Virus record (IMG/VR): IMGVR_UViG_3300012929_000013
DNA: 42,177 nt
Source of the DNA: a virus
Direction: 5' to 3' (one strand)
Each line of letters begins with the position of its first letter. The first letter of the stretch is position 1. Below the pieces are notes generated by a model. It did no database searches and was not told where the DNA came from. It was given only the letters and a program-made list of their open reading frames with translations. Both the position numbers and the translations under genes were made by a program. Shown here piece by piece: positions 4,673 through 28,806 of this stretch.

Positions 4673-6087
4673 GCATCGAGAAGACCTTGCGGGTTGCTCA
4701 ACAGCGAGCCCCGCACCCCAGCGCCGGCACCCATGTCCCAAAGATTCGGAAGCATCGGTACAGGACGCTGCTGAAACAGCGGCGAGCGCCGGCGCATCAT
4801 CTCGTCGAGCCCTCTCATCTGGCGGCCGACCAACGAGTTGTAGGCCGAGCGGGTGCCAGTACCGAGTCCTGTCGCCGCTCCGGCGCCAATAGCGGCGCCC
4901 TCCATTCCGCCGCCCATGGCCGAGCCGATCGCACCGCCAAGACTGGCAATTGCCGTTTGCCCCAGGCCACCGCCGCCGCCGAGCATGTTGCCGACACGGC
5001 GCAACGTATTCGAAGTCGCCGTACCGTTGACGACCTGCCGCATGGCGTCTAGCTCCTCCGCCGAGAAGCCTCGACTTTGCTTGTCATTGAGGAGGAGAGA
5101 GGCAAGCCGCTGCCGCAAGGTATTTCCGGTGTTCTGGCCGGAATTCGCGGCGGAGGCTCGCAGGTCGGCAGCCTCCTCGACGCCGCTGACGCGATCGGAT
5201 CGGAACATGGCGGCTGAGTTGGCCCTGGCTTCCCTGATGAGCCTAGCCGCCGCGGTGAGAGGGTTTTCAGCCACCCCAGCAGCCCCGGTCCCGTTCGCGC
5301 CGCCCGCCCCGGCGGCGGCAGAGGGGACAGGTAGAGTCGAGCCAGGGCCAGGGGAAATAGAAGCGGCGCCAGCACCAGCATCCTCAATATGCTGATCGAT
5401 CCGAGCAATGATTCTTCGGGCGGCTTCCTGCTCGGTTGGATTGCCGAAATTGCCGGCGATGCGGCCGAGCGACTTTCGGACGGCATCGAGGCTGCCGATG
5501 TTGACGGTCGATCCCGGCGGCGGATTGGAGAGACGGCCGAGGACGGCAAAGGTCTGGGGCGCAAGCTCGGAAAGGATGCCATCGGACTCAAGCTCATGTT
5601 GCGCCGTCTGGGCAAGATTGCCAATGTCGGCGCCGGGATATTCCGCGCCGGTTTGGCGTGCTGCATCGTAACCGGCACTCGCCGCGGTCTTCAGCTCGGC
5701 AGCGGTCGGAACGGGTGCCTGTCCGCGGCGCTCCGACATCAGCGCCCCAGGAACGGCGCGAGCGCCCGCCCGCATCGCCGGCGACATCGGCGAGAACATG
5801 GTTGCGAAGTCGAAGGCACGCTTCTGTCCCTCCGGACTCGCGGGGTCGAGGCGGCCAGCGTAGGCATCGCCCGGCGCCGTGAAGGCATCTAGAGCCGCGC
5901 CGGTCAAGCCGGCATGGATGTCAAAATGAACGCCGCCTTGCGGGTCCTCGCTGAACGGCAGGACGCTGAACGGCGTGCTTTGTTGCGGAATGCCATGCTG
6001 CTTCACGAGATCGGCGTCGCTCAACCCCGAGCCAGGATTAGGAATATCATGTGCCGCGATCAGGTCGCTGTCACTGAGCGGGGGCAT
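4651..6087 (-). CDS. Internal virion/ejection protein candidate (478 aa)
   Basis: Track ORF. The assignment rests on its T7-like position between the tube genes and the fibres; it has an Ala/Gly-rich C-terminus. Confidence 0.75.
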   Translation of the reverse strand: MPPLSDSDLIAAHDIPNPGSGLSDADLVKQHGIPQQSTPFSVLPFSEDPQGGVHFDIHAGLTGAALDAFTAPGDAYAGRLDPASPEGQKRAFDFATMFSPMSPAMRAGARAVPGALMSERRGQAPVPTAAELKTAASAGYDAARQTGAEYPGADIGNLAQTAQHELESDGILSELAPQTFAVLGRLSNPPPGSTVNIGSLDAVRKSLGRIAGNFGNPTEQEAARRIIARIDQHIEDAGAGAASISPGPGSTLPVPSAAAGAGGANGTGAAGVAENPLTAAARLIREARANSAAMFRSDRVSGVEEAADLRASAANSGQNTGNTLRQRLASLLLNDKQSRGFSAEELDAMRQVVNGTATSNTLRRVGNMLGGGGGLGQTAIASLGGAIGSAMGGGMEGAAIGAGAATGLGTGTRSAYNSLVGRQMRGLDEMMRRRSPLFQQRPVPMLPNLWDMGAGAGVRGSLLSNPQGLLDAYSFPSP

Positions 6088-15610: not shown

Positions 15611-16578
15611 GCGACGTTCTCCGCCTGATCATGCGACGGCCCCTCTTTAATCCTTGTAGAAGTAGCCTTATCGAACTGATCCAAGATCAACTCAGCATCG
15701 TCGTCCCTGCGCCAGACGATGCGCCGGTTCGGTGCGCTGAACGGCAGTTGCGAGCCCGGCGGGATACCCATCAGTTCCATCCATTCCGCTGTCGGGTGAA
15801 AGTGCAGTCTACCTGTCTGATCAGCCATCAGGCGCTTTTCGAAGAGGTGAAGGAAGAACAAAAACGGCCGCTTGGCGTCGAGGTAGCACAGCGAAAACGG
15901 GCCGCCCGAGGCCGAAAGGTTCATCACCGCGGCATCGTAGAGCGCGGCGCGGATGTCGAGGTCGCAGGCGGCGAGCGGATCGGGGAATTCCGCAAGCCAG
16001 ATCGCCTCGCCCATCTTCCCGGTGTCGGAGATGAAAACCGGCCAGTATCCGCGCGATTTCAAACCCAGATGGACATCTGTCCAGGTCGCTATATTTGAGT
16101 TGCGCATGACGCTATGCGTACTGCGAAGCGTAATGGTGACGAGATTTTCACCACAACCCCATAGCCGCTTAACATGCTCGCGCGCCCGCTCGCTCGCCTC
16201 GAAACGCGGTACCATGCCGGCATCCATCGCCCGCTTCGCCACCGAGATCAGGAACGATTTGTCCGGCTCACCGTTGCCGAAGGTCAGCGGATAGAAGACC
16301 TTGCTCTTGAACGCCTCCGCCTCCTCGCGCCGGCGCAGCACCGTCACCGTCGCGCCGATCATCCGGCATAGCGGCACCAGAATGTGATCGACGCGCCAGA
16401 TTTTCTCCGCCGTCGAGATCGGCTTGTGATCCTCTTCTTTGAAGCCATCGCCCGGTCCCGGCACGATGACGACATGCAGATTCTCGCCTTGCGCGAAATG
16501 CTGCGCGCCGATGAGGAAGTGCATGAAATCGAAGCTGACCGGCGAGACAGCGAGATCGTAGAAGGCGAGAAGGGTCAT
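15607..16578 (-). CDS. Hypothetical protein (323 aa), possible GT-B-like glycosyltransferase partner
   Basis: Track ORF. The segment LVTITLRSTHSVMRNSNIATWTDVHLGLKSRGYWPVFISDT resembles the second Rossmann half of GT9-type enzymes, but the match is weak. Confidence 0.3.
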   Translation of the reverse strand: MTLLAFYDLAVSPVSFDFMHFLIGAQHFAQGENLHVVIVPGPGDGFKEEDHKPISTAEKIWRVDHILVPLCRMIGATVTVLRRREEAEAFKSKVFYPLTFGNGEPDKSFLISVAKRAMDAGMVPRFEASERAREHVKRLWGCGENLVTITLRSTHSVMRNSNIATWTDVHLGLKSRGYWPVFISDTGKMGEAIWLAEFPDPLAACDLDIRAALYDAAVMNLSASGGPFSLCYLDAKRPFLFFLHLFEKRLMADQTGRLHFHPTAEWMELMGIPPGSQLPFSAPNRRIVWRRDDDAELILDQFDKATSTRIKEGPSHDQAENVA

Positions 16579-17993
16579 TCCGCTGCCTCCCGCATCGCCT
16601 CGTCCATCGATCTCAACTCGTCGACCACCTCACCTATGGCGCTCGCCCACTCGCCTCGGTCGCGTGCCGTGCCGGTCTGCCGGAAGAAACGCGAGCTGGA
16701 GCGGTACCAGAGCTTGCCCTTGTCGGCGTAGCGCCAACCGCAGCGTATCGGGACCAGCGTCCAGGTCGGTATGCCAAGCGCATTGCTGAGATGGTGGATC
16801 GACGTTCCCACCGTGATAACAAGCTGCATCGAGGCGACGAAAGATGCCGTCTTGTCGTAGTCCCGGCACTGCACCCAACCCGGATAGTGCTTGATCCTGA
16901 TGCCCGTCTTCTCCTCGAATTCGCACACCTCACGCGCTGCGTCGCCCTGATATTGGAGCGAGTAGAAATCGGCGTCGACAGCGCGGAAGACAGGCTCCAG
17001 CGCCAGCAGCGGCACCGAGCGGACGTGCTGGTTGGTCTTCGGCGTGCCGCCGGTCCAGGCGATGCCGATGCGCGGACGAAACGAATCCCCGACAACGACA
17101 CCTGGAATATCGGCCATCAGATACGGCGTCCCCGGAAAATCCTCGTCCCTGTTGCGGAAGAACTTCGGCAGCGAGGCGATCGAGATCGAGCAGTCCGGCT
17201 CGACATGATCGAGCCATTCGAGCGACGACAGCACCTTGCGCGTGCCGTGCACCGTGCAGTGCTGGAACGAGCGCCGGAACAGCGCCTCAAGCCTGGGATG
17301 GCAATCGATGATGACGTGTGCCGAACGCTCGACGAGGTCCGGGATGCAAGAGGCGAACAGGATCTCGTCGCCGATGCCCTGCTCGCCCCAGACGATCACC
17401 GTCTTGCCATGGCTGCCGTCCCATTCCGGCAGCCCGCGGTAGATGCGGCGCTGCGTCTGCTCCACGGTCGGCAGAAAGCGCGTCTCGGCTGCCGTCCAGC
17501 CCTCGCGCCAGTGTCCGAGCGAGAGATGCGCGAAGTGGCTGCTGAACAATGCGCCGTCATGGTCCGGCCGGATCGCCATCGCCTGCTTGAGGAAATGCAA
17601 TGCCCGCACCGGATCGCCGGTGTTGGTGCAGCATTTGCCGAGATTGGCGAAGAGATCGGCGCGCGAGGGCTCATGCCGCTCATGCTTCAGCGCCGCATCA
17701 TAGAGCCCTTCGGCGCGCTCGATGTCGCCCATGGTGAAATAGGCGGCACCGAGGCTGGCGAGCGCGTCGGTGAAGATGCCGCCGCCCTTCTGCTTGCGCA
17801 CCGCGAGCGCCTGGTGCAGCAGCGCCGCCGCGATGCCCTGCCGGCCGGTCTCGATCAGGCACGAGGCGAGCGACCAGAGAGCGATGTCGTCGTCGAAATT
17901 GGTATTGAGATGGCGCGACAGCAGCGCGATCGCCGGCTCCCACTCGCTGCGGTGGATATGCGCCTTGGCCTGCTCGAAAAGCTCGCTCATCAC
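16575..17993 (-). CDS. TPR-repeat + GT9-like (heptosyltransferase-fold) glycosyltransferase (472 aa)
   Basis: Track ORF. The N-terminal ~170 aa are TPR-like helices. The C-terminal part carries VIVWGEQGIGDEILFASCIPDL, IGIAWTGG, RSVPLLALEPVF...FYSLQY and LVITVGTSIHHLSNALGIPTWTLVP...WRY, the signature of TPR-GT9 fusion proteins. Confidence 0.7.
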   Translation of the reverse strand: MMSELFEQAKAHIHRSEWEPAIALLSRHLNTNFDDDIALWSLASCLIETGRQGIAAALLHQALAVRKQKGGGIFTDALASLGAAYFTMGDIERAEGLYDAALKHERHEPSRADLFANLGKCCTNTGDPVRALHFLKQAMAIRPDHDGALFSSHFAHLSLGHWREGWTAAETRFLPTVEQTQRRIYRGLPEWDGSHGKTVIVWGEQGIGDEILFASCIPDLVERSAHVIIDCHPRLEALFRRSFQHCTVHGTRKVLSSLEWLDHVEPDCSISIASLPKFFRNRDEDFPGTPYLMADIPGVVVGDSFRPRIGIAWTGGTPKTNQHVRSVPLLALEPVFRAVDADFYSLQYQGDAAREVCEFEEKTGIRIKHYPGWVQCRDYDKTASFVASMQLVITVGTSIHHLSNALGIPTWTLVPIRCGWRYADKGKLWYRSSSRFFRQTGTARDRGEWASAIGEVVDELRSMDEAMREAAE

Positions 17994-18093
17994 GCCCCCG
18001 AAAAGCGGGCTGCCTCCTCGCGGAGGGCCTGGAGAAGACAGCCCGAGTAGACCTCGCGGTGGTTACCGCCGCGAAGCCTACCACATCGGATAC

Positions 18094-18561
18094 TTAGCCC
18101 GGTAGCCCGTCCAGCCGATAGATGCAGGTCCAATTGATGGTGACCTGCGAGGTCAGCGAGCCCGAGGCCACCTTCGCCGTCAATTGGGCGAAGCGGTTCG
18201 GGTCGAGATCGGACAGCGAGATGGTGATCCCCTGGCCGCCATTGCCTGCGGTGACGACGTTGCGGCGATTGAATGTCGACTTGGCGCCGGCGGCGATGAG
18301 GGCCGAGAGATTGCCGGTGCCGCCGGCGACGATCCCGGTATTGAAGCCGAAATCGAGGCCCGCGGTGTCGGCACAGGTATGGTCCTCGAAGAAATCGACG
18401 ACCACGGCGCCGTGCGGAATTTTCGCCAGGAGCACGATATCGCCGACCGATGGCGCGATCGCCGTGGCGGGAACCACGGCGCTGCCGGAGACCGACATGT
18501 TGCCGATGTGAACAGCCTTGATGTTGCCGAGATTGTAGTTGGTCGAGGTCGAGAGCGCCAT
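18094..18561 (-). CDS. Capsid-adjacent structural protein (155 aa), possible decoration protein
   Basis: Track ORF starting 12 nt after the capsid gene stop. The assignment rests on position only. Confidence 0.35.
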   Translation of the reverse strand: MALSTSTNYNLGNIKAVHIGNMSVSGSAVVPATAIAPSVGDIVLLAKIPHGAVVVDFFEDHTCADTAGLDFGFNTGIVAGGTGNLSALIAAGAKSTFNRRNVVTAGNGGQGITISLSDLDPNRFAQLTAKVASGSLTSQVTINWTCIYRLDGLPG

Positions 18562-18573
18562 GTGCGGTCCTCC

Positions 18574-19654
18574 TTACAATGCCGGCGCGTAGGACGACAT
18601 CACGATCGTCCCGAAGTCGGCCGAGTTGAAGACCAGCTTCTTGATGCCGAAAATCGCCCCGGCCATGACGCCGAGCTGATTGCCGTAGTCGAAAAGCTCC
18701 TCGACCCATGACATGTTGTCGGCGCCTCCCCCTCGCCCGAAGCCGATCGCCGCCGCCTGGGCGCCGCAGAAGATGCCGCGGCGGTAGTTGGTCGACGAGG
18801 TCACCGAAGACGCGACGTAGGGCACACGCGCATCCTCGACGAGGACGCAATTGTTGTAGACGCCGATGAGCCCGGTGATGATCGGGTTATCGGCGATCCG
18901 GCCGCCGGTCAGCACCGCCTTCTGAATGTCGATCCACTGCCCCGTGTTGGTATTGGTGCGAAACTGGTACGTCTGATTCGGGTGGATGAAGAGGACGTAC
19001 ATCTTGTCCCCGTTCACCGTCAGTGGCCGGATCGCCGGCGTCGCCGTCTTCGCCTTGGCGACGACCCGGTCGACATCCTTCAGGTTCATGATGAAGGTCG
19101 CCGAGAGGGATGCCTCGGTGGTGTTGCCGCCGTTCTGGTCGCAGATGATCAGGTTGGTCGTAGCGGTCGGCGCGATGGCCGCCTGGTTGCCCGAGAACGC
19201 CGTCGAGATCGAGGTGCTCTGCGTCGCGTTCGCCTGTGTCTGCTGCGTCGTCGCGCCGGCGATCTGGTTGAACATCGAGCAATCGATGCGGTCGGCCCAC
19301 CAGTCTTGCAAGCCCGCTCGCGCCTCGTCGCGGACCTCGAACGGCACGCGCTGCTCCGACATCTTGCCGCTCGACCGCACGGCGTGACGAAGCTGATCGA
19401 TGAAGAGATTGTCGGAATAGGTGATGAGCGCCTCTTCCTGGCCCTCCAGCGTCGCATCGCCCTGCACGCCGGTGCCGACGAGCTGCATGCGCAGCCCGAT
19501 GGTGACGCGGTCGCCCGGACCCTTCGAGGTCTCGGTCTTCAGGGTGATCAGGCTGTCGGTCCCGGTGGTGCCCTTGAACTGCTCGTATCGGGTTTGCTTG
19601 AGCGCCTCGACGAACAGCTTCTTTGCCCAGGCCTTCACGGCGAGGGCGTTGTTG
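18574..19654 (-). CDS. Major capsid protein, N4-gp56 type, exon 2
   Basis: This is the C-terminal 360 codons of track ORF 18574..20382. ...NNALAVKAWAKKLFVEALKQTRYEQFKG...GDRVTIGLRMQLVGTGVQGDATLEGQEEAL...IDQLRHAV matches the N4-like capsid family pattern. Exon 2 begins at a codon third position, completing GT|C. Confidence 0.8.
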
Positions 19655-20397
19655 CCTTGCGTTCGCCGGGATTCGCTACTTTCCCGACCGCCCTTGCGGG
19701 CTGCTGCATGTTCCCATGCAGAGCAGACTATATCATGGTCCCGATGAAGGACCCCGCGCGCTTCCGGCCGCTTGGCCGTACTCCCCGAAGGGATAGTCGT
19801 TGCGCCTTCCCATTGCTGGGCTCGGTTCAGGATTACCCGGTCTGGGCTTCCCCTGAGTTCACGCGGTTTGCATGCGCCGTAATATGTGGGCAAACGCCGC
19901 CGTTGTGAGCCTTCCCGAAATTGCAGTTCATGCAGAGAATCTGATAGCCGGGCGGATACCCGGTGTGTCTCAGATGATTCAGCATGGCACCGCCGCAGCC
20001 TCGTCCGTTGCTGATTGTCCACCCAAGCGAACGCCGGTGATTGGCACCGTCGTTGTTCATGTGATCCAGGGTCAGAAACCTCGGTTCCGTCTCGCCACAA
20101 CAAGCGCAAATATACCCGCCATACGCCATGATCGCTTCGTGCCTGACCTTCTGCCAGTAATCGCGGCCACGCTTTCGCTCTTTCGTGGTCCACGCTGGAT
20201 TTTCGCGGTCGCGCAAATTCTTCAGACGCCAGTACTCTTTCAGCCGCTCCTTGTTCGCCGCGCGATACTCGCGCTGATATTCCAGAGTGCAGGGCTGACA
20301 GTAGCAACGAGACCCCTTGCCCATCTCGGCAACGATCCCGCATCGAGCGCACGTTTTGACCATATGCCATCTTACTGCGCATGGGGCTAATTAATCA
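19655..20397 (-). mobile_element. Group I intron (IA2/td-like core) interrupting the major capsid gene, 743 nt
   Basis: P1 hairpin ATGGGGT/TGATTAATT/AGCCCCAT has a U.G pair at the 5' splice site (U at 20398), and the intron ends in G (19655). The 3' 178 nt read P7 GACTAT, P7.1 CCCTTCGGGG, P7.2 GGCCAAGCGGCC, P3' GCGCGC, P8 GGTCC...GGACC, P7' ATAGTC, P9 CTGCATGGGAACATGCAG (GNRA loop) and CCCGCAAGGG. Removing the intron gives an in-frame 1104-nt CDS. Confidence 0.75.
19833..20363 (-). CDS. HNH homing endonuclease (176 aa), intron-encoded
   Basis: Track ORF with Cys pairs (CARCG, CYCQPC, CACCG) and the HNH core LTLDHMNNDGANHR...ILCMNCNFGKAHNG. It lies entirely inside the proposed intron. Confidence 0.8.
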   Translation of the reverse strand: MVKTCARCGIVAEMGKGSRCYCQPCTLEYQREYRAANKERLKEYWRLKNLRDRENPAWTTKERKRGRDYWQKVRHEAIMAYGGYICACCGETEPRFLTLDHMNNDGANHRRSLGWTISNGRGCGGAMLNHLRHTGYPPGYQILCMNCNFGKAHNGGVCPHITAHANRVNSGEAQTG

Positions 20398-20420
20398 ACC
20401 CCATAAGATGTGCCTGCCAT
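20398..20420 (-). CDS. Major capsid protein exon 1 (MAGTSYGV, 23 nt)
   Basis: AAAGGAG lies 9 nt upstream of the ATG at 20420. The unspliced reading gives MAGTSYGVD-stop; spliced, it continues MAGTSYGVNNALAVKAW... Confidence 0.7.
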
Positions 20421-20607
20421 AAAACGGTGTCTCCTTTGATCAAAGAAAGTTGCGGATGTGCCGCCATGTCGCTGGCGTGCATGCGATCCGCTCCCTTGTC
20501 GCAGGAGCGCGGCGAATACCGGCTTAACGTCCCGGCCGACGGCCCTCGCTATCGCGGAAGACAGGCGGTAGACGGTTTTACAATATTATCGTGCGGTATA
20601 CCAGTCC

Positions 20608-21471
20608 TCAGCCGCCCATGATCTGCCGCCACTTGCGCGGATTGGTCGCGATCTCGGCGAAGTCGTGGTCATCCATCTCCAACAGCTTGTTCAGCGTCAG
20701 ATTGGCCGGCGGCGCGTTGCCGGCCCGCGCTGTCGAGGCTGCCGCCTGCTGGCCGCGCTGCAATGTCTCGACATGCTGCTTCCCATCGCCGGCGCCCGGC
20801 TGCTGAGCGCCATTGGTCGCCTGATAGCCTCTCCGCTTGGCGACGGCATAGATGCGCTCCGCCGGGTTGACGCCGTCCCGCATCGCCTTCGAGGCAATCG
20901 CCGCCTCCATGCGCTGGATTTCTTGCGCCACGACGCCAGGATCGGTCCAGCCGGCATCCTGTAGCTCGCCGGCGATCGACTGAATGAAATGATGATAAGC
21001 CTGGCCGAAATCCTGATGCTCGCGCGCGAAGTTTTGTGCATGCGCGGCGTAGGAATTGCGGAAACTCTCCATCTGATCGCGATGAGCATCGCGCTGGAGA
21101 ATCTGCCGCACATCCGCTTCCAGCCGCTTCCCCGCGTCAAGCGGCGCGGTATCCCAATCGGGCGCCTTCGGCTGATCGGCCGGCGTCACCGCCCGTTGAA
21201 GCAGGTTCAGCCGCTCCTCGAGCTTGCCCATGTCGCGCTGATAGCGCTGCTCGCTAGCGCGCCGCCGCTCGGTCTCCTCGCGCAGCCGCGAGGACGGCAC
21301 CATGGCATCCGGCTTGGCCAGCGTCTTTCCGTCGCCATCCGTTGATTCCGCCGGCGTATCCGGGATTGCTTCACGTGAAACATCGGCTTCCGGCACGGCT
21401 GGCTGGCGCGGCTCCGGCTGCGTCGCCGCCGTCTCTTCCGCCGTGAAATCCGTCAGGTTTTCGTCAGCCAT
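20608..21471 (-). CDS. Scaffolding protein candidate (287 aa)
   Basis: Internal start MADENLTDF... of track ORF 20608..21525. It is acidic, helical and charged, and sits between portal and capsid. Confidence 0.6.
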   Translation of the reverse strand: MADENLTDFTAEETAATQPEPRQPAVPEADVSREAIPDTPAESTDGDGKTLAKPDAMVPSSRLREETERRRASEQRYQRDMGKLEERLNLLQRAVTPADQPKAPDWDTAPLDAGKRLEADVRQILQRDAHRDQMESFRNSYAAHAQNFAREHQDFGQAYHHFIQSIAGELQDAGWTDPGVVAQEIQRMEAAIASKAMRDGVNPAERIYAVAKRRGYQATNGAQQPGAGDGKQHVETLQRGQQAAASTARAGNAPPANLTLNKLLEMDDHDFAEIATNPRKWRQIMGG

Positions 21472-21637
21472 TGGTGAATCCCGCAGCGTTAAGATAAGCC
21501 GTCCAAAGCGGCACCGTTCCGACAATTTTCCCTGCGATAACTACATTGATCTTGCGATCCGGATCATCGCCGTCATCCTCGCAAAGCTTACGTGCCAGAG
21601 GCTCAAGCCGCGCGCTCGCCGTGTCTTCATCAACCAT
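21464..21637 (-). CDS. Hypothetical small protein (57 aa)
   Basis: Not in the track. Hand translation: MVDEDTASARLEPLARKLCEDDGDDPDRKINVVIAGKIVGTVPLWTAYLNAAGFTNG. It overlaps the portal stop by 8 nt and the scaffold start by 8 nt. Confidence 0.5.
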   Translation of the reverse strand: MVDEDTASARLEPLARKLCEDDGDDPDRKINVVIAGKIVGTVPLWTAYLNAAGFTNG

Positions 21638-23789
21638 GATCGGCTCCCGTCTTCTGCTTCGCCGCAGCGCGATCCTTCACCTTCGCACTCTCGCGCTGAA
21701 TCTCGACCTTCTTCTGCTCGACATCGATATCGGAAGCCGCCGTCGCCTGCTTGATGGCGATCTCCTGCTGTGCCCGCTCGCGCTGAATCTGCATCTCGAC
21801 CTCGGCGATCCGCTTCTTGAGCTCCAATTCCTGCACCGCCAGCACCGCCTCGGCGTCCGCCTTCTGCTTCTCCATCGCCATACCGAATTGAAACTCCTGC
21901 GCCTTCAGATCGTTGTTCTGGCGCAGCGACTCCTTCTCCTGCTCGGCCTGCTGAAGCTGTTTCTGCAAGCCCTGAAGCTGATCGGTCAGCGATTGCATTT
22001 GCTTCTGGACCTGCGGCGGCACCGGCGGCGGCGCCTGGCTCAGCATGCCGCCGATCTTCTGCGCCACGCTCTCCGGCAGCGGCGAGTATTTCAGGATTTC
22101 CGCCCATACCGCGGTCGGCACCGGCGCCTTCGCCAGCATCGGCAGCATGCCCATCACCATCGACCAAATCGCCTCCTTCTGATTCGGCGAGGTCGGGCTT
22201 TCGTCGACGATCACATCGTATTTGAGGACGCTCTCGTCCTTCAGAAACGGCACGTATTTCGGCCCGTTCTCGCTGTCGATGCGGATCAGCCGCCCCTTCG
22301 GAATGTAGTGCGTCATGATGTAGAGCATGGCGCGGCCCTGCTGCTTGCGGTAGCGCCGCAGGCTGTCGAACAGCGTCGCCAGCACCGTCATGCCGGACTG
22401 CTTGCGCTGGTATTCCAGGACGCCGGCCTGCTCGCGGTCGGCGAGGCCGAGAATTTCGAGATTGACCCCGGTCACGTCTGGAATCGAGCCTGCCGCGTAT
22501 TCCATCAGCTTGTCCAAGCCGACCGGAAAGACGATAGCCTCGCGCGGCTGTATCTTCTCCAGCGCGCCGGGCTTCGCCCAGATAATCGCGTCCGAGCGCG
22601 CCCAATCCGCTTCCGCCTGACGGTCGTTCTCGAAGGCACCGCGCTCGGCGACGACGCCGCCTTTCGCATTGCTATTGATAATGTGCAGGATTTGGCTGAA
22701 GAACTTATTCGCCCAGCGCTGCGGGTCCTTCATCGCGCGGACAATGCCGTACCAGGTATTCTTGTTTCGGTCGCGCTTGCCAGTGATGAAATTTATGGTG
22801 AACTCGTGCGGGCAGCGCCCATTGCCCTGCTTCAGTATCTTGCCGCCGATGAAGGCGTTGCGGAAGACCTTGCGGGTCATCTGCGCGGTCTCGAACGGAA
22901 TCCCGAAGACCTTCAGCCGATCGCGCGCCTTGCCAGCTTGCGCCGAGGTGAACTCGGCCCGCTTCTGGGTGAACGGGTCGACGCCGATATGATAGGTCTC
23001 GCGCTCGTACCACTCGCAATAAACGATGACCACGGTCGGCTTGCGCAGCGGATCCTTATTACCCTGATCGCCCTGGTTGTAGGCGAGCTGCGGCGTCGCA
23101 TCGTGCGGATCGGCCGCGTCCGGCCGCTCAACATGCGCCCACACCGCATCGAGATCGTCATCCTCGGCATCGGGGAAAAGCGCCTTCGCCTCGCTGAACG
23201 CCATCTCGCGGTCATAGCCGCAGTAGCGCCGATCGGAGAGGTTGCGCTTGCGTGAGGTCGGGTCGTACCACGCCGTCAGAGGGTCGATGCGATCAACAGG
23301 AATAAGGCCTTCCGGGTCCTCCTCGAAGTCCGGCCGGGTTTCCGTGCAGCCAAGGCCGCATACAACCGTATCAAAGAAAGCATCAGACTCCTCGTCCTCG
23401 GCCTCGCTCTCCTCGCGGAAGAATTTCGCCGCGTTGGTGAGGAGATCGTTGAGCCCGGTCTGATCGACTTGGCGCGGAATGTAGATCGTATCGTTGCGAT
23501 GATTGACCTCCATGCCACTGACACTATCGACGACCGGGCCGACGCGATTGAAGACGACAGGCGCGCGGTCCATCTCGGTCAGCAGCCGCTTGTCCTCGGC
23601 CTCCCATTGATCGCCCGAGACCATGGCGAAGCTCTCGGCCGCCTCGACCACCCAATCGGCGAGATGCTTGCGGCTGTCCTTGTGCCAGCCCTTGATGGTG
23701 AGGAAAAGCTCGTCCTCGTCCTGCTCGGACGCGGTCGTCGCATCGGGCTCGGCCGCGCTGGTGGCATAGGTTGTCTCATCCGCCATCAT
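21630..23789 (-). CDS. Portal protein (719 aa)
   Basis: Track ORF. Size, position after the terminase, the motif AAESFAMVSGDQWEAEDKRLL...RAPVVFNRVGPVVDSVSG, and a long coiled-coil C-terminus. Confidence 0.85.
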   Translation of the reverse strand: MMADETTYATSAAEPDATTASEQDEDELFLTIKGWHKDSRKHLADWVVEAAESFAMVSGDQWEAEDKRLLTEMDRAPVVFNRVGPVVDSVSGMEVNHRNDTIYIPRQVDQTGLNDLLTNAAKFFREESEAEDEESDAFFDTVVCGLGCTETRPDFEEDPEGLIPVDRIDPLTAWYDPTSRKRNLSDRRYCGYDREMAFSEAKALFPDAEDDDLDAVWAHVERPDAADPHDATPQLAYNQGDQGNKDPLRKPTVVIVYCEWYERETYHIGVDPFTQKRAEFTSAQAGKARDRLKVFGIPFETAQMTRKVFRNAFIGGKILKQGNGRCPHEFTINFITGKRDRNKNTWYGIVRAMKDPQRWANKFFSQILHIINSNAKGGVVAERGAFENDRQAEADWARSDAIIWAKPGALEKIQPREAIVFPVGLDKLMEYAAGSIPDVTGVNLEILGLADREQAGVLEYQRKQSGMTVLATLFDSLRRYRKQQGRAMLYIMTHYIPKGRLIRIDSENGPKYVPFLKDESVLKYDVIVDESPTSPNQKEAIWSMVMGMLPMLAKAPVPTAVWAEILKYSPLPESVAQKIGGMLSQAPPPVPPQVQKQMQSLTDQLQGLQKQLQQAEQEKESLRQNNDLKAQEFQFGMAMEKQKADAEAVLAVQELELKKRIAEVEMQIQRERAQQEIAIKQATAASDIDVEQKKVEIQRESAKVKDRAAAKQKTGADHG

Positions 23790-24058
23790 GCAACCATAAC
23801 GGGATCGTCACAGTCTGGCAATTCGGTCAACCACGCCCTGCCGAGTCCGGCGATCAGGATATCGGCGGCATCAGGCGCGTCAATCGGAGCGCGCGCCGCC
23901 CAGTGGCGCCGCTCGGATGCCGGCTGATCAAGCGAATCGCGCCGACAAACGACGACGCCGATTTGTGTTTCCGCATCGAACACGAGACTTCTGACGACAA
24001 CGAATTCGGCGGGTAGGCGATCCCGCACGTCGTTCTCAATGCCGCTCACGCGGCCCAC
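23786..24058 (-). CDS. Hypothetical protein (90 aa)
   Basis: Track ORF with good GC3. ATGA overlap with the portal gene and a 13-nt overlap with TerL. Confidence 0.5.
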   Translation of the reverse strand: MGRVSGIENDVRDRLPAEFVVVRSLVFDAETQIGVVVCRRDSLDQPASERRHWAARAPIDAPDAADILIAGLGRAWLTELPDCDDPVMVA

Positions 24059-25479
24059 GCCGAGCGCCGCTTGCCGCCGTAGAGCTTGCGGCGATACTTG
24101 TCGACCATCTCGTCCGGCTTGCGGTCGAGCCCGCCGGCGAAGGTGAGGCAGAACGCATCGGCGAGATCGGGCGAGCGATGGCCGCGTTTCTTCATCTCGT
24201 CCTTCGCCTCGACCTTGACCTTGCCGGTCGATTCGATGCGGTATTTCGGGGCGCTCAGCTCAGCGATGAGCGCCTGATCATCTTGCGGTAATACCGAACT
24301 GCCACCAGCCAGCCAATCGCGAGCGCGAAACCAAAGCTCATCGCGAAGACGCATGAAACGATCGGATATAGCAGCGGCCTCGCCGACGTTAACGCCCCGC
24401 ACAGGAAGACCAAGCTCGCCCAGGCGATCGACAACGCCAGCACCCAACCCGATGACATCCACGAGTATTTCGGACGGCCGGTCGAGCTCATGAGTCAGCT
24501 TCCATTCCTCGACGATGAGGCCGGTGAGTTGCATGGTGTCCTTGCCGTGCCACGCGCGCACCGGCTCGAGCAGAGTATTCCCCTGCCGCTTGGCGAGCGC
24601 GCTGCGATCATCGCCGAAGCGCGCGACATCGACGCCCCACACCGGCCGGTAATCCGTTGCCGCCACCTTGCGGCGCGCCGCGGCCTCGCAAAGATGCAGC
24701 GGAATAACCGCATCGTCCTCGGTATCGGGGAATTCGCCGAGCACGCGGACACGGTAAGCATTGCTGTCCTTGCCGTATTTCGCGGCGATATCGTCGATGT
24801 GCCCTTGCGCGCGCGGCACGTCCTCAGAATTGACGCGCATGGTGGACCAGCGGTCACGCATGCCGTGGTGGGTGTCATAGAAGAAGCCGCTCGAGCGCGT
24901 CGGATTGGCAAACAGCACCATTTTGGCGCCCAGCGTCGACATCGAGCCGGCACCGACCTCGAAGACGATGTCGGGGATGCCGGACGCCTCCTCGACGACG
25001 AAGAGGAGGTTGTCCTCGTGGAAGCCTTGGAGAGCTTCGGGGTTGTCCTTGGAGGCGGTTCGGGCGACGGCGAAGCATTCCGGCTTGGCGGTCATGTAGA
25101 CGCGCTCGGCATCGATTTGCAGCTCGCCGCGCAGCGCCTCCGGCAGGCGGCCATGCCACTTGCGGATTTCCGGCCACACGACATCGCGCAGCTGGTCTTG
25201 GGAGTTGGCGACGATCGGCACCTTAAACGGCACGCGCGTGCACATGAACCAGAGGACGATCCAGGCGAGATCGGTGGTTTTGCCGACGCCGTGGCCGGCG
25301 CGGATGGAAAGGCGGTCTGATATCGCGAGGGCGCGCAGCGAGTCGGCTTGCCAAGGCTCAGGCTGAGCCTGCAACGCCTCGGTCACGAAGGCCAGTGGGT
25401 CGAGGTGCCAACGTCTCAGCGTCTTGCGTGCCGCCAAGGATTCCGGCGAGAAGCGCTGGGAGGCTGTCGTGTCGGACAT
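24046..25479 (-). CDS. terL: Terminase large subunit (477 aa)
   Basis: Walker A is RAGHGVGKTT and Walker B is LLFVVEEASG. A C-terminal RNase-H-like nuclease region contains VWGVDVARFGDDRS. Confidence 0.9.
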   Translation of the reverse strand: MSDTTASQRFSPESLAARKTLRRWHLDPLAFVTEALQAQPEPWQADSLRALAISDRLSIRAGHGVGKTTDLAWIVLWFMCTRVPFKVPIVANSQDQLRDVVWPEIRKWHGRLPEALRGELQIDAERVYMTAKPECFAVARTASKDNPEALQGFHEDNLLFVVEEASGIPDIVFEVGAGSMSTLGAKMVLFANPTRSSGFFYDTHHGMRDRWSTMRVNSEDVPRAQGHIDDIAAKYGKDSNAYRVRVLGEFPDTEDDAVIPLHLCEAAARRKVAATDYRPVWGVDVARFGDDRSALAKRQGNTLLEPVRAWHGKDTMQLTGLIVEEWKLTHELDRPSEILVDVIGLGAGVVDRLGELGLPVRGVNVGEAAAISDRFMRLRDELWFRARDWLAGGSSVLPQDDQALIAELSAPKYRIESTGKVKVEAKDEMKKRGHRSPDLADAFCLTFAGGLDRKPDEMVDKYRRKLYGGKRRSAWAA

Positions 25480-26513: not shown

Positions 26514-26726
26514 CGTGACATTCCGGGGGAATATATCTTTAGATATATCCCGGATGTCACGGTGGTGACATTGGCCGATGTCACGCTATGTCACGCTATG
26601 TCACGATCATTGATTTCATTGATTTTTTTGATGTCACGCCCAATGTCACATGGTGTCCCTTTATCTCTGATTTTACGAAAATGGCGATGTCACGCTATGT
26701 CACGCGCCGTGACATTAGGTGTCACG
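26514..26726. repeat. Iteron cluster: about 12 copies of ATGTCACG / CGTGACAT in both orientations flanking an AT-rich core (putative replication origin or regulator array)
   Basis: Direct copies are at 26554, 26578, 26588, 26598 (three at 10-bp spacing), 26631, 26643, 26687, 26697 and 26720. Inverted copies are at 26514, 26565 and 26708. There is also a palindrome ATATATCT-TT-AGATATAT at 26531-26548, and TCATTGATT x2 followed by a T-run at 26607-26630. Confidence 0.6.
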
Positions 26727-28806
26727 CTATCCAAATCCATTCCCCATACATCCTGATAATTCCTTTGTTATCAAGACCATCGCGAATCCTCTCCCATTGC
26801 TTTCGCTCCGTCCCTGGTATGTCACGCGTGGTAATTCCAGACTGCCCAAGCTCGGCGCGGAATGTTTCAATTTTGACGACCCTGACATTGGGCAAATTGT
26901 GTCCGGCCGGAGCTGGGATCGAGTGCTCGACGAAGACATTTTTAAGGACATCGAGGGCGCGTATTTCTTTTGGTGATAGCGGCCTTGTTGCCTTTATGGA
27001 TATAGAATTGTCATCGACGGATTTGACGATACAGGAGGTCACCGGCTTGCCGCGGCGGTTGGTTCCAAGCTCTACCTTTTCAAGCCTGAAGGCGAAGGCG
27101 CCGCCGGTCTCCAGCTCCCGCTGCTTGACGACGGTGGCGACGCTGAAATCGGCGCCTTCCTGTCTTGTGACCTCGATCTCGGTATCGGTAGCGGCACGCA
27201 AGGAATTATGACCGCGCGCGCCGCGCGCCTGATCCTTGCCGCTATGATGGACAAAGGCGAGGGCAGTGGGTGCTTCCATCCTGATCCGGTCGGCATTGAT
27301 GACGACAGCGCCCATGTCTTCCGGGGCATTTTCATTGCCGCCGGCGAAGGCCCTGGCCAGGGTATCGATGACGACGAGCAAGATGGGCATTCCGATTTCA
27401 GCGGAAGCCTGCTTTATCAGGGCGATGAGCTTGCCGGTATCGGCCTTGGGATCGAGCATGTTGATGGACGTGGCGACGACGGCGAGAGGGATTTTCTGTC
27501 CTTCCATGCCATAATGTTTCTTGAGCGCGGAAAGACGGTTTTTAATCCCGAAACTGCCTTCCAGGGCGACATAGATGACCCCGCCACGGTCGACTTCGCG
27601 ATCGCGCCAGCGTCGGCCGGTGGCGATGTGAAAGGCAAGGTCCGTCATAAAGAATGTCTTGCCGCAATTGCTCTCGCCGTATACGACGGACATCTGATTA
27701 GTGCAGAGAATACCTTCAACGAAATCAATCGCATCTATGGATGGCTGCACTGCATCGAACCATATGAAAGGCAGAGGATATTCGCCGGACGATTGTTCCG
27801 GCTCTACGACGGGGTGGGGGCGTCCGGCAATCCCTTCCTTGAACGCCGCTTGAGCGATTTCGTCGGCGATCTGTTGCAGGACGGGGAACTTGCCGGTAGC
27901 GGCCCGGTGAAGCAGGTAGCCGATGCGCTGGCGCATGAGCGCCTCGCCGCGCTGATCGGCATCGAGGCTGGTGCTGCGAGCCTTGACGTTGCGCTCGTAG
28001 GTCGGCCATGCCTCGGCGAATAGCTCGATGGGCTCCGGTAGAGTTCCATTGGCGCGGACATAGCTGCCGATACAGCCGCAAATGACCTGCACCATGTACT
28101 TCTCGCGCCCGTCGCCGACGAAGCCGAAGGCAGTGCGGTCGATGCCATTGGCATGGGCGCCGGTCGCGCCATTGGGCTGAGCCCGCTCGGCGCCGCTCTC
28201 GATCAGGGCGAGGAGCCAAGGCGGCGCATCGGCCGGCTTGAGCTTGGCGGGATGGTGGCGCTCGTCCCAAAGGTAGTAGCGGCCACTGGCGTGAAGAGAC
28301 GGCGCGGCGACGATGAAGCCGCCCTCCCCCCTTGTGTCGACGCCGGGTCCGAGGATGTTGCGATCGGTCTTGATTCGTATGCCGGCGGGAGCCGTGAACA
28401 GGTAGTGCCGGCCGCCGCCGCCGGTTATCGCCTGACAGGTTTCCGGCAAGTCGTCATTGTGCATTTGCAGGAAGTGCAGCGTGTCGGCGCCCTCCTTGCC
28501 GGGCGCCTGGTCGACATCGACGACGAAAAGGTTGCCGGAGGCGGCGCCGGTGATGATGCCGATACCGTACTCGCGGTACGGACCGGTGAACCATGCCTTG
28601 ATCTGGTCGAGCCCGGCGCGTTGCGTTTGGAACGGCGTCCAGGCGATGGCGGGATGCTTGCCGGGGGAGACGCAGGCAGGGCCGAGCTGGCAGGAGCAGG
28701 AAGCGCCCGCGAGGCGATGAGCCGGTATGACCGACCAGCCGAGAGAATGATAGAAGAGCGCCCAACTGAGGGTTGCTGGAACATCAGTAGGGGCTTGCTC
28801 GGTCAT
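26722..28806 (-). CDS. Bifunctional primase-polymerase (prim-pol) fused to a RepA/DnaB-like AAA helicase domain (694 aa)
   Basis: The N-terminus has LGWSVIPA...GKHPAIAW...IKAWF...GIGIITG..SGNLFVVDVD...TGGGGRHYLF. The C-terminus has Walker A VYGESNCGKTF and Walker B LLVVIDTLARAF. Confidence 0.85.
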   Translation of the reverse strand: MTEQAPTDVPATLSWALFYHSLGWSVIPAHRLAGASCSCQLGPACVSPGKHPAIAWTPFQTQRAGLDQIKAWFTGPYREYGIGIITGAASGNLFVVDVDQAPGKEGADTLHFLQMHNDDLPETCQAITGGGGRHYLFTAPAGIRIKTDRNILGPGVDTRGEGGFIVAAPSLHASGRYYLWDERHHPAKLKPADAPPWLLALIESGAERAQPNGATGAHANGIDRTAFGFVGDGREKYMVQVICGCIGSYVRANGTLPEPIELFAEAWPTYERNVKARSTSLDADQRGEALMRQRIGYLLHRAATGKFPVLQQIADEIAQAAFKEGIAGRPHPVVEPEQSSGEYPLPFIWFDAVQPSIDAIDFVEGILCTNQMSVVYGESNCGKTFFMTDLAFHIATGRRWRDREVDRGGVIYVALEGSFGIKNRLSALKKHYGMEGQKIPLAVVATSINMLDPKADTGKLIALIKQASAEIGMPILLVVIDTLARAFAGGNENAPEDMGAVVINADRIRMEAPTALAFVHHSGKDQARGARGHNSLRAATDTEIEVTRQEGADFSVATVVKQRELETGGAFAFRLEKVELGTNRRGKPVTSCIVKSVDDNSISIKATRPLSPKEIRALDVLKNVFVEHSIPAPAGHNLPNVRVVKIETFRAELGQSGITTRDIPGTERKQWERIRDGLDNKGIIRMYGEWIWIA

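What the first reader, a model, noticed from the sequence alone, without database searches (positions are those of the whole stretch)
19655..20397. Major capsid gene is split by a td-like group I intron carrying an HNH endonuclease
The track shows a single 602-aa ORF (18574..20382). Only its last ~360 aa look like an N4-gp56-type capsid protein. The first ~240 aa are Arg-rich nonsense that overlaps a well-formed HNH ORF in another frame, and no start codon or RBS precedes the capsid-like part.

About 770 nt upstream, a strong RBS (AAAGGAG) drives ATG GCA GGC ACA TCT TAT GGG GT (MAGTSYGV), and this reading then hits a stop. That exon end sits in a hairpin, ATGGGGT / loop / AGCCCCAT, with a U.G wobble at exactly U20398, which is the classic group I P1 and 5' splice site. 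Cutting after G19655 joins GT|C and gives MAGTSYGVNNALAVKAWAKKLF..., an in-frame 1104-nt (367-aa) capsid gene with a family-typical N-terminus.

The last 178 nt of the intron contain, in canonical order: P7 GACTAT, P7.1 CCC-TTCG-GGG, P7.2 GGCC-AAGC-GGCC, P3' GCGCGC, P8 GGTCC/GGACC, P7' ATAGTC, P9 CTGCATG-GGAA-CATGCAG and CCC-GCAA-GGG. Two stretches, ACGACTATCCCTTCGGGGAGTA and GATATAGTCTGCTCTGCATGGGAACATGCAGC, are nearly identical to the phage T4 td intron core as I recall it. That comparison is from memory and needs verification.
Basis: partly seen in the sequence, partly recalled or inferred. Interest (0 to 1): 0.85.

Follow-up and report, generated by a model that had tools for sequence, protein, structure and literature searches.

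The report
Self-splicing intron splits phage capsid gene
The major capsid gene of this roughly 42-kb tailed phage is interrupted after its first 23 bases by a 743-base T4-td-like group I intron that carries its own HNH-type endonuclease gene; this is a well-supported but ordinary kind of mobile element that automatic gene callers misread.

Summary
Exon 1 (20420..20398, 23 nt), a 743-nt intron (20397..19655) and exon 2 (19654..18574) join into an in-frame 367-aa capsid protein. It matches capsid profiles from residue 1. Its first 36 residues are identical to an uninterrupted allele in a related phage (L008).

Rfam's group I intron model hits above its curated threshold (54.9 bits, cutoff 50). 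Four other metagenomic phages carry a homologous intron at the same codon. Across these five introns, 99.4% of modelled base pairs form and 34 of 67 show compensatory changes. Every helix from P1 to P9.2 is covered, and the splice-site U·G is invariant. The recalled similarity to the T4 td core was verified (22/23 and 30/32 bases).

The 176-aa ORF lies in the P2 loop. It has an HNH-like zinc-bound motif but does not reach Pfam's HNH models. Intron presence is patchy among relatives, which fits mobility.

Corrections: the capsid is PF13252-type, not N4 gp56-type. Capsid-gene introns are already known, so this is a new member of a known kind.

A side finding: related introns occupy three further sites in the same capsid gene family.

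Splicing and homing are inferred, not shown experimentally.

The parts
20431..20437 (-). Ribosome-binding site AAAGGAG of the capsid gene, 10 nt upstream of ATG 20420
   Evidence: Read directly; coordinates computed.
20398..20420 (-). Capsid exon 1, 23 nt (ATGGCAGGCACATCTTATGGGGT). It encodes MAGTSYG plus the first two bases of Val8. The 5' splice site lies after U20398.
   Evidence: The N-terminus is conserved in uninterrupted homologues. The U.G pair at the splice site is invariant in five same-site introns.
19655..20397 (-). Group I intron, 743 nt, subgroup IA2-like (td-like). It ends in the terminal G at 19655.
   Evidence: Rfam RF00028 54.9 bits against a cutoff of 50; covariation; homologous introns of 741-759 nt at the same codon.
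20381..20404 (-). P1 hairpin. The exon strand is 20404..20398 (AUGGGGU) and the internal guide sequence is 20387..20381 (GCCCCAU). U20398 pairs with G20387. The exon-1 reading frame stops at UAA in the loop.
   Evidence: unconstrained fold of the ORF-deleted RNA; in L088 GGGGU/GCCCC becomes GGCGU/GCGCC, where the exon-side change is a synonymous Gly codon.
20377..20382 (-). P2 5' strand AUGCGC. It pairs with 19877..19872 and closes the roughly 500-nt loop that holds the endonuclease ORF.
   Evidence: Five of the six P2 pairs show changes on both sides among the five same-site introns.
19872..19877 (-). P2 3' strand GCGCAU
19833..20363 (-). Intron ORF of 176 aa, an HNH-like endonuclease. It has an N-terminal CxxC...CxxC zinc ribbon and a CxxC-DH-N...CxxCN core. 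Its last ~11 codons (NRVNSGEAQTG) overlap P3-P5, and its UAA stop lies in J5/4.
   Evidence: ORF. PHROG 1035 and 2255, E = 7e-11 and 7e-10. More than 1,000 homologues with invariant C5, C8, C22, C86, C89, D100, H101, C144, N146, C147, C158, H160. AF2 model pLDDT 87.7. Matches to viral proteins annotated as HNH, E = 5e-5 to 8e-4. No Pfam or NCBIfam hit.
19665..19866 (-). Catalytic core. It contains P3 (19866..19860 with 19760..19754), P4, P5, P6/P6a, P7 (19798..19793 with 19731..19726, a pseudoknot), P7.1 (C-UUCG-G tetraloop), P7.2, P8, P9, P9.1 and P9.2.
   Evidence: Coordinates; pair counts; T4 td identity of 22/23 and 30/32 in the P7/P7.1 and J8/7-P7'-P9 segments.
19704..19947 (-). Extent of the Rfam Intron_gpI match. 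The model's first two helices are forced onto ORF sequence here. The real P1 and P2 lie about 450 nt upstream.
   Evidence: The alignment shows mismatch marks in the first helix.
18574..19654 (-). Capsid exon 2, 1081 nt including the stop codon. It starts with the third base of Val8 (C19654).
   Evidence: Pfam PF13252 229 bits, residues 7-365. phrog_334 residues 1-364. PDB 8h89 major capsid protein, E = 7e-46.

Best explanation
A mobile td-like (subgroup IA2-type) group I intron of 743 nt sits inside codon 8 of the phage's major capsid gene, between the second and third bases of Val8.

The late capsid transcript starts translation signals at AAAGGAG/ATG 20420. The ribozyme folds as follows:
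- P1 pairs the end of exon 1 with the guide sequence GCCCCAU.
- P2 closes the loop that holds the ORF.
- The P3-P9.2 core lies in the last ~200 nt.

The ribozyme excises itself by the usual two guanosine-initiated transesterifications, after U20398 and after G19655. This yields an mRNA for a 367-aa PF13252-type capsid protein.

The P2 loop encodes a 176-aa HNH-like endonuclease. It most likely cuts or nicks intron-less capsid alleles of co-infecting relatives, so that repair copies the intron in (homing).

Shown here: the anatomy, the in-frame junction, homology of the junction to uninterrupted alleles, selection on the RNA structure, and a patchy distribution. Inferred: catalysis, the in vivo efficiency that such a highly expressed protein would need, endonuclease activity and its target.
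For: - **Model hit.** Rfam RF00028 scores above the gathering threshold in the window. It scores 57-79 bits in four same-site homologues and gives no hit in the intron-less L008.
- **Junction.** The spliced CDS is in frame, 367 aa. It matches phrog_334 from residue 1 and PF13252 over residues 7-365. Its first 36 residues equal the uninterrupted L008 allele. Uninterrupted Rhizobium, Microcystis and Paracoccus phage capsids align across the junction without a gap.
- **Structure.** Five same-site introns (window, L005, L085, L087, L088): 67 pairs, 99.4% paired, 34 with changes on both sides, 0 of 500 shuffles as high, and 34-44% paired when partners are slid. Every helix from P1 to P9.2 has at least one compensatory pair. 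A six-intron set that includes the experimentally self-splicing T4 td intron gives 92% paired and 25 compensatory pairs. An unconstrained fold recovers the architecture.
- **td similarity.** Core identity to T4 td was verified. The core resembles sequences in 588 phage records, many of them beside HNH genes inside polymerase genes.
- **Not an artefact.** The same locus was assembled independently at 100% and 99.94% identity in another sample.
- **Mobility.** The nearest capsid relative, L008 (80%), lacks the intron. L085 and L087, with 54-55% identical capsids, carry it with 61-62% identical endonucleases.
Against: - There is no RNA evidence. The exact spliced junction was not found in the metagenome or viral contig collections.
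- P10 is weak: by eye only about 2 bp are possible between exon 2 and the guide region.
- The endonuclease ORF runs into P3-P5, so its translation could compete with ribozyme folding.
- The endonuclease does not reach Pfam or NCBIfam HNH models, and its match to solved HNH structures is not significant.
- The covariation shuffle control does not correct for relatedness. The slide control does, and agrees.
Confidence: 0.93

Rival explanations
1. There is no splicing. The capsid protein starts at the internal GTG 19638 (354 aa), as gene callers annotated it. The HNH gene is a free-standing gene between the scaffold-like gene and the capsid gene, and the ribozyme-like sequence is a relic.
For: Public gene calls for this contig and for its relatives give 337-360-aa capsids that start downstream of the intron. 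Free-standing HNH genes do lie just upstream of uninterrupted capsid genes in Rhizobium phage RHph_Y1_10 and Paracoccus phage KLEP18-1.
Against: - GTG 19638 has no credible RBS. Starting there would delete 13 N-terminal residues that are conserved in uninterrupted homologues and covered by the profiles.
- Exon 1 has a strong RBS and encodes exactly the missing residues in the right phase, in five independent phages.
- A relic would not keep 99.4% pairing with 34 compensated pairs, including P1 pairing to the exon.
Confidence: 0.04
2. The intron is real but no longer splices efficiently, so this is a defective genome with a disrupted capsid gene.
For: There is no expression data. The window comes from a metagenome, so viability is unknown.
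Against: - All core segments that are invariant between these introns and the active T4 td intron are intact.
- The same genome was recovered from two data sets and appears circularly complete.
- Four other phages keep the same arrangement with open, full-length spliced ORFs.
Confidence: 0.03
3. The 602-aa ORF 18574..20382 is translated as one fusion protein.
For: It is an uninterrupted ORF with an ATG start.
Against: - Its first 243 residues are 16% Arg with a third-position GC of 0.50, against 0.90 in exon 2. They overlap a conserved ORF in another frame and have no homologues.
- Its ATG lies inside P1/P2.
Confidence: 0.005

Closest known systems
Phage T4 td intron (group I, subgroup IA2, encodes I-TevI)
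   Same: Same core architecture, with P7.1/P7.2 and P9.1/P9.2. The P7-P7.1 segment is 22/23 identical and J8/7-P7'-P9 is 30/32 identical. The fold is shared, with compensatory changes. In both, the 5' exon ends ...GGGU and the upstream reading frame stops at a UAA just inside the intron.
   Different: - The host gene is the capsid gene, not thymidylate synthase.
- The ORF is HNH-like and sits in the P2 loop. In T4 td it is GIY-YIG and sits in the P6 region (annotation; sequence).
- The P2, P3, P5, P6, P7.2 and P8 sequences differ.
HNH-encoding group I introns in phage DNA polymerase, primase and RNA polymerase genes (Xanthomonas CP1/MK21, PhAPEC5/7, Pseudomonas and Erwinia T7-like phages)
   Same: The last ~200 nt of the intron are 72-83% identical to these. 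They are often annotated next to 'HNH homing endonuclease' genes within split replication genes.
   Different: The host gene differs. The endonuclease family found here occurs in only 33 GenBank phage records and not in those phages, so ribozyme and ORF have separate histories.
Capsid-gene intron of mycobacteriophage LittleE, and lactococcal phage Tuc2009 as cited in the same paper
   Same: A spliced intron inside a major capsid gene with a U at the end of exon 1 and a G at the end of the intron. Splicing in LittleE was shown by RT-PCR and N-terminal sequencing (PMC3706429).
   Different: The LittleE intron type was called 'unclear, most likely group I', and it carries a LAGLIDADG-like ORF on the opposite strand. 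Here the intron is a clear td-like IA2 ribozyme with a same-strand HNH-like ORF, in a Gram-negative-type podophage lineage.
PhiPA3 gp210, an intron-encoded HNH endonuclease used in interference competition
   Same: An intron-borne HNH endonuclease in an essential phage gene that can cut the intron-less allele of a co-infecting relative (PMC11620839).
   Different: The function is demonstrated there and is only a hypothesis here. The host gene and the phage type differ.
T4 nrdB intron / I-TevIII
   Same: A group IA intron whose ORF belongs to the H-N-H family (annotation).
   Different: No detectable sequence relationship was tested for I-TevIII. A profile comparison with the T4 H-N-H protein MobE was negative.

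Membership tests
Group I intron (Rfam RF00028) | Covariance-model score at or above the curated gathering score | tested here: met
   54.9 bits against a cutoff of 50, E = 2.3e-11. Same-site homologues score 57-79 bits.
Group I intron (Rfam RF00028) | P1 helix formed by the 5' exon end and an internal guide sequence, with a U.G wobble at the 5' splice site | tested here: met
   AUGGGGU/GCCCCAU with U20398.G20387. The U.G pair is invariant and one P1 pair is compensated across five introns.
Group I intron (Rfam RF00028) | [quoted passage not shown] | tested here: met
   G19655. It is the only G near the junction that restores the frame. A G sits at the equivalent position in L005, L085, L087 and L088.
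Group I intron (Rfam RF00028) | Conserved P3-P8 core with the P3/P7 pseudoknot, maintained by covariation | tested here: met
   P3, P4, P6, P7 and P8 all have pairs changed on both sides. Slide controls drop to 34-44% paired.
Group I intron (Rfam RF00028) | Guanosine-dependent self-splicing | not testable with these tools
   Needs in vitro transcription and splicing, or RNA from infected cells.
Subgroup IA2 (T4 td-like) | Extra helices P7.1 and P7.2 between P7 and P3', plus P9.1/P9.2 extensions. This definition follows the classification of group I introns as I know it. | tested here: met
   P7.1 CCC-UUCG-GGG, P7.2 CGGCC-AAGC-GGCCG, P9.1 and P9.2 are present and covarying. They align column for column with T4 td.
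HNH endonuclease superfamily | Match to curated HNH models (Pfam, NCBIfam) | tested here: not met
   No Pfam hit even at E <= 10, apart from a non-significant Spt4 zinc finger. No NCBIfam hit. None of the 120 best homologues carries a Pfam domain.
HNH endonuclease superfamily | Catalytic motif: CxxC ... D-H ... N ... CxxC-N/H on a beta-beta-alpha core | tested here: met
   C86, C89, D100, H101, (N104), C144, N146, C147 are invariant or nearly so in 37-42 diverse members. The model has strand 97-101, helix 106-112, strand 140-144 and helix 145-153. PHROG HNH and endonuclease VII families match at E = 1e-10.
HNH endonuclease superfamily | Fold similarity to HNH structures | tested here: inconclusive
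   PDB: the best match is T5 SciA endonuclease, E = 0.29, TM 0.2-0.3. The profile against PDB sequences is best on a group II maturase HNH domain, E = 0.38. BFVD predicted structures: several proteins annotated 'HNH endonuclease' at E = 5e-5 to 8e-4 but with TM only 0.2-0.4.
Mobile (homing) intron | Presence/absence polymorphism at one precise site, with an intact empty-site allele | tested here: met
   L008 (80% identical capsid) is uninterrupted at the site. About 70 IMG/VR relatives are uninterrupted from residue 1. Intron and capsid similarities are incongruent.
Mobile (homing) intron | The endonuclease cleaves the intron-less allele near the insertion site | not testable with these tools
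   Needs a cleavage assay on an L008-type target.
N4 gp56-type capsid protein | Detectable homology to N4 gp56 or the same Pfam family | tested here: not met
   N4 gp56 is in PF25209 and this protein is in PF13252. BLASTP E = 0.11. No N4-like phage appears among the 85 tblastn hits.
PF13252 Phage_capsid_3 major capsid proteins (Bcep22 / Ralstonia GP4 / RHph_Y1_10 group) | Full-length match above the Pfam cutoff, in a capsid position within the head gene module | tested here: met
   229 bits against a cutoff of 23. PDB 8h89 major capsid protein, E = 7e-46. The terminase, P22-type portal and scaffold-like genes lie directly upstream.

The most novel reading that the evidence does not exclude
One td-like ribozyme lineage, carrying one unannotated HNH-like endonuclease family, has colonised the capsid gene of this podophage clade at four or more different positions, with a re-tuned guide sequence at each:
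- codon 8 in the window, L005, L085, L087 and L088;
- codon 31 in MW202512;
- residues 89/90 in L056;
- residues 110/111 in L059.

The ORF also sits in two different places in the ribozyme, the P2 loop or the P6 loop. If this reflects active intragenic transposition (reverse splicing or endonuclease retargeting), the endonuclease might also serve as a weapon. It would cut the capsid gene of intron-less co-infecting relatives, giving interference competition as shown for PhiPA3 gp210. In that case the capsid gene would be an arena of phage-phage conflict rather than a passive host of a selfish element.
Probability: 0.2. Interest if true: 0.6.

Novelty: new member of a known kind. Interest (0 to 1): 0.38.

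Why it matters
**Annotation.** Automatic annotation gets this gene wrong in every public copy examined, reporting a 354-aa truncated capsid, a 602-aa fusion ORF, or a 163-aa endonuclease that lacks its first zinc-binding cysteines. Capsid-based phylogenies and structural models of this phage group would therefore use clipped proteins.

**Biology.**
- The T4-td ribozyme lineage extends into the most highly expressed late gene of high-GC, soil or sediment podophages.
- It travels with an HNH-like family of more than 1,000 members that no curated library covers.
- The same gene family carries related introns at several sites.

This gives a compact natural system for studying how group I introns and their endonucleases move and retarget. 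It does not change current understanding of what such elements are.

Tried and rejected
- **Spliced junction search.** The exact 27-mer GGCACATCTTATGGGGTCAACAACGCC, which would mark an intron-less twin or a spliced transcript, gave no match in metagenome contigs or viral contigs.
- **Same-site introns in metagenomes.** The pattern TAYGGGGTTNNNTAATTAGCCCC gave one hit, L084. It proved to be unrelated AT-rich DNA, a chance match.
- **Conservation of insertion sites.** I tested whether the four intron insertion sites lie in unusually conserved capsid segments. They do not: 9-residue windows fall at the 27th-67th percentile, so I make no such claim.
- **Endonuclease classification.**
  - Pfam at E <= 10 and NCBIfam gave nothing.
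  - PDB by sequence and by profile gave nothing significant.
  - hhalign against T4 MobE was negative.
  - Foldseek against the PDB was not significant.
- **N4 gp56 relationship.** Rejected.
- **Identifying the phage.** A near-identity search of 16 kb against GenBank phages returned only two 46-nt matches to the intron core. No tRNA genes were found. The genome-contig scan gave only distant capsid relatives in two MAGs.
- **Rfam placement of P1/P2.** Rfam places the model's first two helices at 19947..~19900. This is a fitting artefact, with mismatch marks. The real P1 and P2 are at 20404..20377 and 19877..19872.
Full report
**1. What is in the sequence**

On the minus strand, a consensus RBS (AAAGGAG, 20437..20431) precedes ATG 20420 by 10 nt. 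The reading frame ATG GCA GGC ACA TCT TAT GGG GTT GAT TAA stops after nine codons.

The list of ORFs shows the 602-aa ORF 18574..20382 and, in another frame, a 176-aa ORF 19833..20363. The first 243 residues of the long ORF do not look like protein:
- They are 16% Arg, against 4.7% in the rest.
- Their frame has a third-position GC of 0.50. The overlapping 176-aa frame has 0.68, and genuine genes of this genome have 0.82-0.90.

Joining 20420..20398 to 19654..18574 gives 1104 nt in frame. The product is 367 aa and begins MAGTSYGVNNALAVKAWAKKLF. The only in-frame start codon near the capsid-like part is GTG 19638. It has no usable RBS.

**2. Is the junction right?**

- The spliced protein matches Pfam PF13252 (229 bits, residues 7-365) and PHROG 334 'major head protein' from residue 1 to profile position 1.
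- Uninterrupted capsid genes of Rhizobium phage RHph_Y1_10, Microcystis phage Mae-JY35 and Paracoccus phage KLEP18-1 read M..T.YGVN(D/N).LA.K.W.KKL. They align across the junction without a gap.
- An IMG/VR relative with an 80% identical capsid (L008) has an uninterrupted gene whose first 36 codons translate to exactly the predicted spliced N-terminus.
- Given the 23-nt exon 1, G19655 is the only G near the junction that restores the frame.

**3. Is it a group I intron?**

Rfam's Intron_gpI model is the only family that passes its gathering score in the whole window: 54.9 bits against 50, E = 2.3e-11, at 19947..19704. The model's first two helices are forced onto ORF sequence there. The real elements lie about 450 nt upstream:
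- P1 is 20404..20398 paired with 20387..20381, with U20398.G20387 at the splice site.
- P2 is 20382..20377 paired with 19877..19872. It closes the loop that holds the ORF.

An unconstrained minimum-energy fold of an ORF-deleted construct recovers P1, P2, P3, P4, P5, P6/P6a, P7.1, P7.2, P8, P9, P9.1 and P9.2.

The recalled resemblance to T4 td was checked against NC_000866:
- AACGACTATCCCTT(C/T)GGGGAGTA is 22/23 identical.
- GATATAGTCTGCTCTGCATGG(GA/TG)ACATGCAGC is 30/32 identical.
- The helices between those two stretches differ.

**4. Comparative evidence for the fold**

The closest homologues of the intron ORF lie in four further metagenomic phages: L005, L085 (with L086 a second copy), L087 and L088. 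All have the same layout of portal, scaffold-like gene, ORF and truncated 'capsid'.

In all of them exon 1 is 23 nt, the 5' splice site follows GG(G/C)GU, and the intron (741-759 nt) ends in G immediately before the wobble base of Val8. Splicing gives open 347-376-aa capsid ORFs. Rfam scores these introns at 57-79 bits and finds nothing in the intron-less L008.

On an alignment of the five ORF-less introns, the td-type structure of 67 pairs behaves as follows:
- It is 99.4% paired.
- 34 pairs have changes on both sides.
- None of 500 shuffles reaches the observed values.
- Pairing falls to 34-44% when the 3' partners are slid by 1-3 columns.
- Every helix has at least one compensated pair.

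The clearest compensatory examples are:
- P1: GGGGU/GCCCC becomes GGCGU/GCGCC. The exon-side change is a synonymous Gly codon.
- P2: five of six pairs are compensated.
- P3: CCGCGUG/CGCGCGG becomes GCUGGUG/CGCCAGC.
- P7: GACUAU/AUAGUC becomes GACCAU/AUGGUC.
- P9: both strands change together.
- The U.G pair at the splice site never varies.

A second set of six cores includes the experimentally self-splicing T4 td intron. It gives 92% pairing and 25 compensated pairs, with the same behaviour in the controls.

The shuffle control ignores relatedness, but the slide control does not. These structures were also not derived from the alignments. I take this as strong evidence that the RNA structure is under selection, meaning the ribozyme works.

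**5. The ORF**

The 176-aa protein has no Pfam or NCBIfam hit. It does match PHROG families 1035 ('endonuclease VII') and 2255 ('HNH endonuclease') at about 1e-10.

It belongs to a family of more than 1,000 metagenomic proteins. None of the best 120 carries a Pfam domain. Alignments show these invariant features:
- an N-terminal zinc ribbon: C5, C8, C22 and C25;
- a core of C86-x2-C89 ... D100-H101 ... N104 ... C144-x-N146-C147 ... C158-x-H160. This is the pattern of zinc-bound HNH nucleases in which the last His is replaced by Asn.

C5 and C8 are invariant, so the true start is ATG 20363. The downstream Met used by public gene calls, which gives 163 aa, is not the start.

Structure comparisons gave mixed results:
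- An AlphaFold model is confident (pLDDT 87.7).
- Foldseek finds viral proteins annotated as HNH endonucleases at E = 5e-5 to 8e-4.
- Its best PDB match, the T5 SciA endonuclease, is not significant.
- A profile search of PDB sequences is best, but not significant, on the HNH domain of a group II intron maturase.

I therefore call it HNH-like. Curated-family membership was tested and not met.

The ORF's last eleven codons (NRVNSGEAQTG) are simply P3-P5 read as protein, and the stop is the UAA of J5/4.

**6. Mobility**

Among 73 IMG/VR relatives of the capsid, nearly all are uninterrupted from residue 1.

Intron presence cuts across capsid similarity:
- L008 (80% identical capsid) lacks the intron.
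- L005 (67%) has it.
- L085, L087 and L088 (51-55%) have it. Their capsids are closer to the intron-less L009 and L076.

Endonuclease identities are 62%, 61%, 53% and 53% for L085, L087, L088 and L005 respectively. They do not track capsid identities.

The intron (58% GC, ORF third-position GC 0.68) is compositionally off the genome (63% GC, third-position GC 0.8-0.9).

This is the pattern expected of a homing element. Cleavage was not and cannot be tested here.

**7. Beyond the finding**

Three other relatives carry related introns with the same endonuclease family at different places in the capsid gene:
- MW202512 (L002): inside the codon aligned with window residue 31. Its P1 is CUUGGAU/GUUCAAG.
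- L056: between residues aligned with 89 and 90.
- L059: between residues aligned with 110 and 111.

Each 5' splice site follows a U and each intron ends in G. Splicing gives open 346-359-aa capsids that align gap-free across the junctions.

In those three the ORF sits in the P6 loop. In the window's group it sits in the P2 loop.

C-terminal tails of the 120 best endonuclease homologues indicate both layouts are common. This is inferred from peptide signatures only:
- At least 37 are translations of J2/3-P3-P5, which marks the P2-loop layout.
- At least 13 are translations of P6'-P7-P7.1, which marks the P6-loop layout.

The insertion sites are not unusually conserved.

**8. Context**

The neighbouring genes are:
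- a large terminase (24046..25479);
- a P22-type portal (21630..23789);
- a scaffold-like gene (20608..21525);
- a small conserved gene and a TPR protein downstream;
- tail-fibre-like genes;
- a primase-polymerase/helicase (26722..28806);
- an exonuclease.

The first and last 123 nt of the window are identical, so this is probably a complete, circularly assembled genome of about 42.05 kb. It comes from an ENA metagenome contig. Two JGI contigs from another data set are 100% and 99.94% identical across exon 1, intron and exon 2. That excludes a chimeric assembly. No near-identical phage is in GenBank.

The capsid is not N4-like. N4 gp56 is in PF25209, pairwise BLASTP gives E = 0.11, and no N4-like phage appears among the tblastn hits. 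The best solved relative is PDB 8h89.

**9. Comparison with what is known, and verdict**

Group I introns with homing endonucleases are classic in phages. Spliced introns in capsid genes have been shown for mycobacteriophage LittleE and are cited for lactococcal phage Tuc2009 (PMC3706429). The ribozyme core here is shared with hundreds of phage records.

The element is therefore a new member of a known kind. It works like T4 td plus an HNH homing endonuclease. It meets every testable criterion for group I and IA2 membership. For the HNH family it fails the curated-model criterion but meets the motif criterion.

What is modestly new:
- the host lineage and gene;
- the very short exon 1, which defeats gene callers;
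- the unannotated endonuclease family;
- the multi-site occupancy of one gene family.

By analogy with PhiPA3 gp210 (PMC11620839), the endonuclease might also harm intron-less competitors. That is speculation.

Confidence that this is a functional, spliced group I intron: about 0.93. Interest: moderate to low (0.38).

Noticed in passing
L002 (MW202512) 1849-2475; L056 2219-3030; L059 2220-3000: Related td-like introns carrying the same endonuclease family interrupt homologous capsid genes at three other positions. These align with window residue 31 (phase 2), residues 89/90 and residues 110/111. Each has its own P1 guide sequence. The GenBank record MW202512 annotates only a truncated capsid, and labels the intron ORF 'icea protein'.
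   Followed up: yes
window 19833-19866 (C-terminus of the intron ORF); proteins P0002-P0120: The endonuclease's C-terminal tail is the ribozyme read as protein. At least 37 of the 120 best homologues end in translations of J2/3-P3-P5 (..NRVNSGEAQTG, or ..KQTA in another frame). At least 13 end in translations of P6'-P7-P7.1 (..EGSTTIAQAST). The same ORF family therefore appears to occupy either the P2 loop or the P6 loop of td-like introns. This is inferred from the peptides only.
   Followed up: partly
window 1-123 and 42055-42177: The first and last 123 nt are identical. This fits a circularly assembled, probably complete phage genome of about 42,054 bp.
   Followed up: partly
window 19638 and 20324 (public gene calls; L081, L082): Public gene callers start the capsid at the internal GTG 19638 (354 aa). 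They start the endonuclease at Met14 (163 aa), which removes the invariant Cys5 and Cys8. Both are probably mis-annotations caused by the intron.
   Followed up: yes
L001 798-1373 (Rhizobium phage RHph_Y1_10); L004 208-786 (Paracoccus phage KLEP18-1): Free-standing genes annotated as HNH endonucleases lie immediately upstream of uninterrupted capsid genes in the closest cultured relatives. They were not hit by tblastn with the intron ORF at E <= 1e-3, so they are a different family.
   Followed up: partly
L005 341-358; also L085 and L087 just after P1: In three same-site introns the guide sequence AGCCCC is followed by UUGU-GGGG(C/U). The guide could therefore fold back on the P2 5' strand instead of pairing with exon 1, giving a possible alternative structure that competes with P1. 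The window itself lacks this.
   Followed up: no
window 16575-17993 (-) and 18094-18561 (-): A TPR-repeat protein and a 155-aa protein with no family match follow the capsid gene. The same pair of genes follows the capsid in L002, L087 and L081, so they are conserved parts of this head module. Their role is unknown.
   Followed up: no
window 4651-6087 (-): A 478-aa ORF in the tail-gene region gives a weak PHROG match to a 'major head protein' family (phrog_21712, E = 4e-12). It is unrelated to the real capsid gene.
   Followed up: no
L059 1396-1432 (+): Rfam abiF RNA motif hit (48.6 bits, cutoff 37), about 460 nt upstream of the capsid gene start (ATG 1893) in this IMG/VR contig.
   Followed up: no
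H79: Stenotrophomonas phage ANB28 (PQ434692) 17715-18155: A homologue of the intron endonuclease lies next to or inside the class Ia ribonucleotide reductase alpha-subunit gene. This suggests the same endonuclease family travels with introns in other host genes.
   Followed up: no
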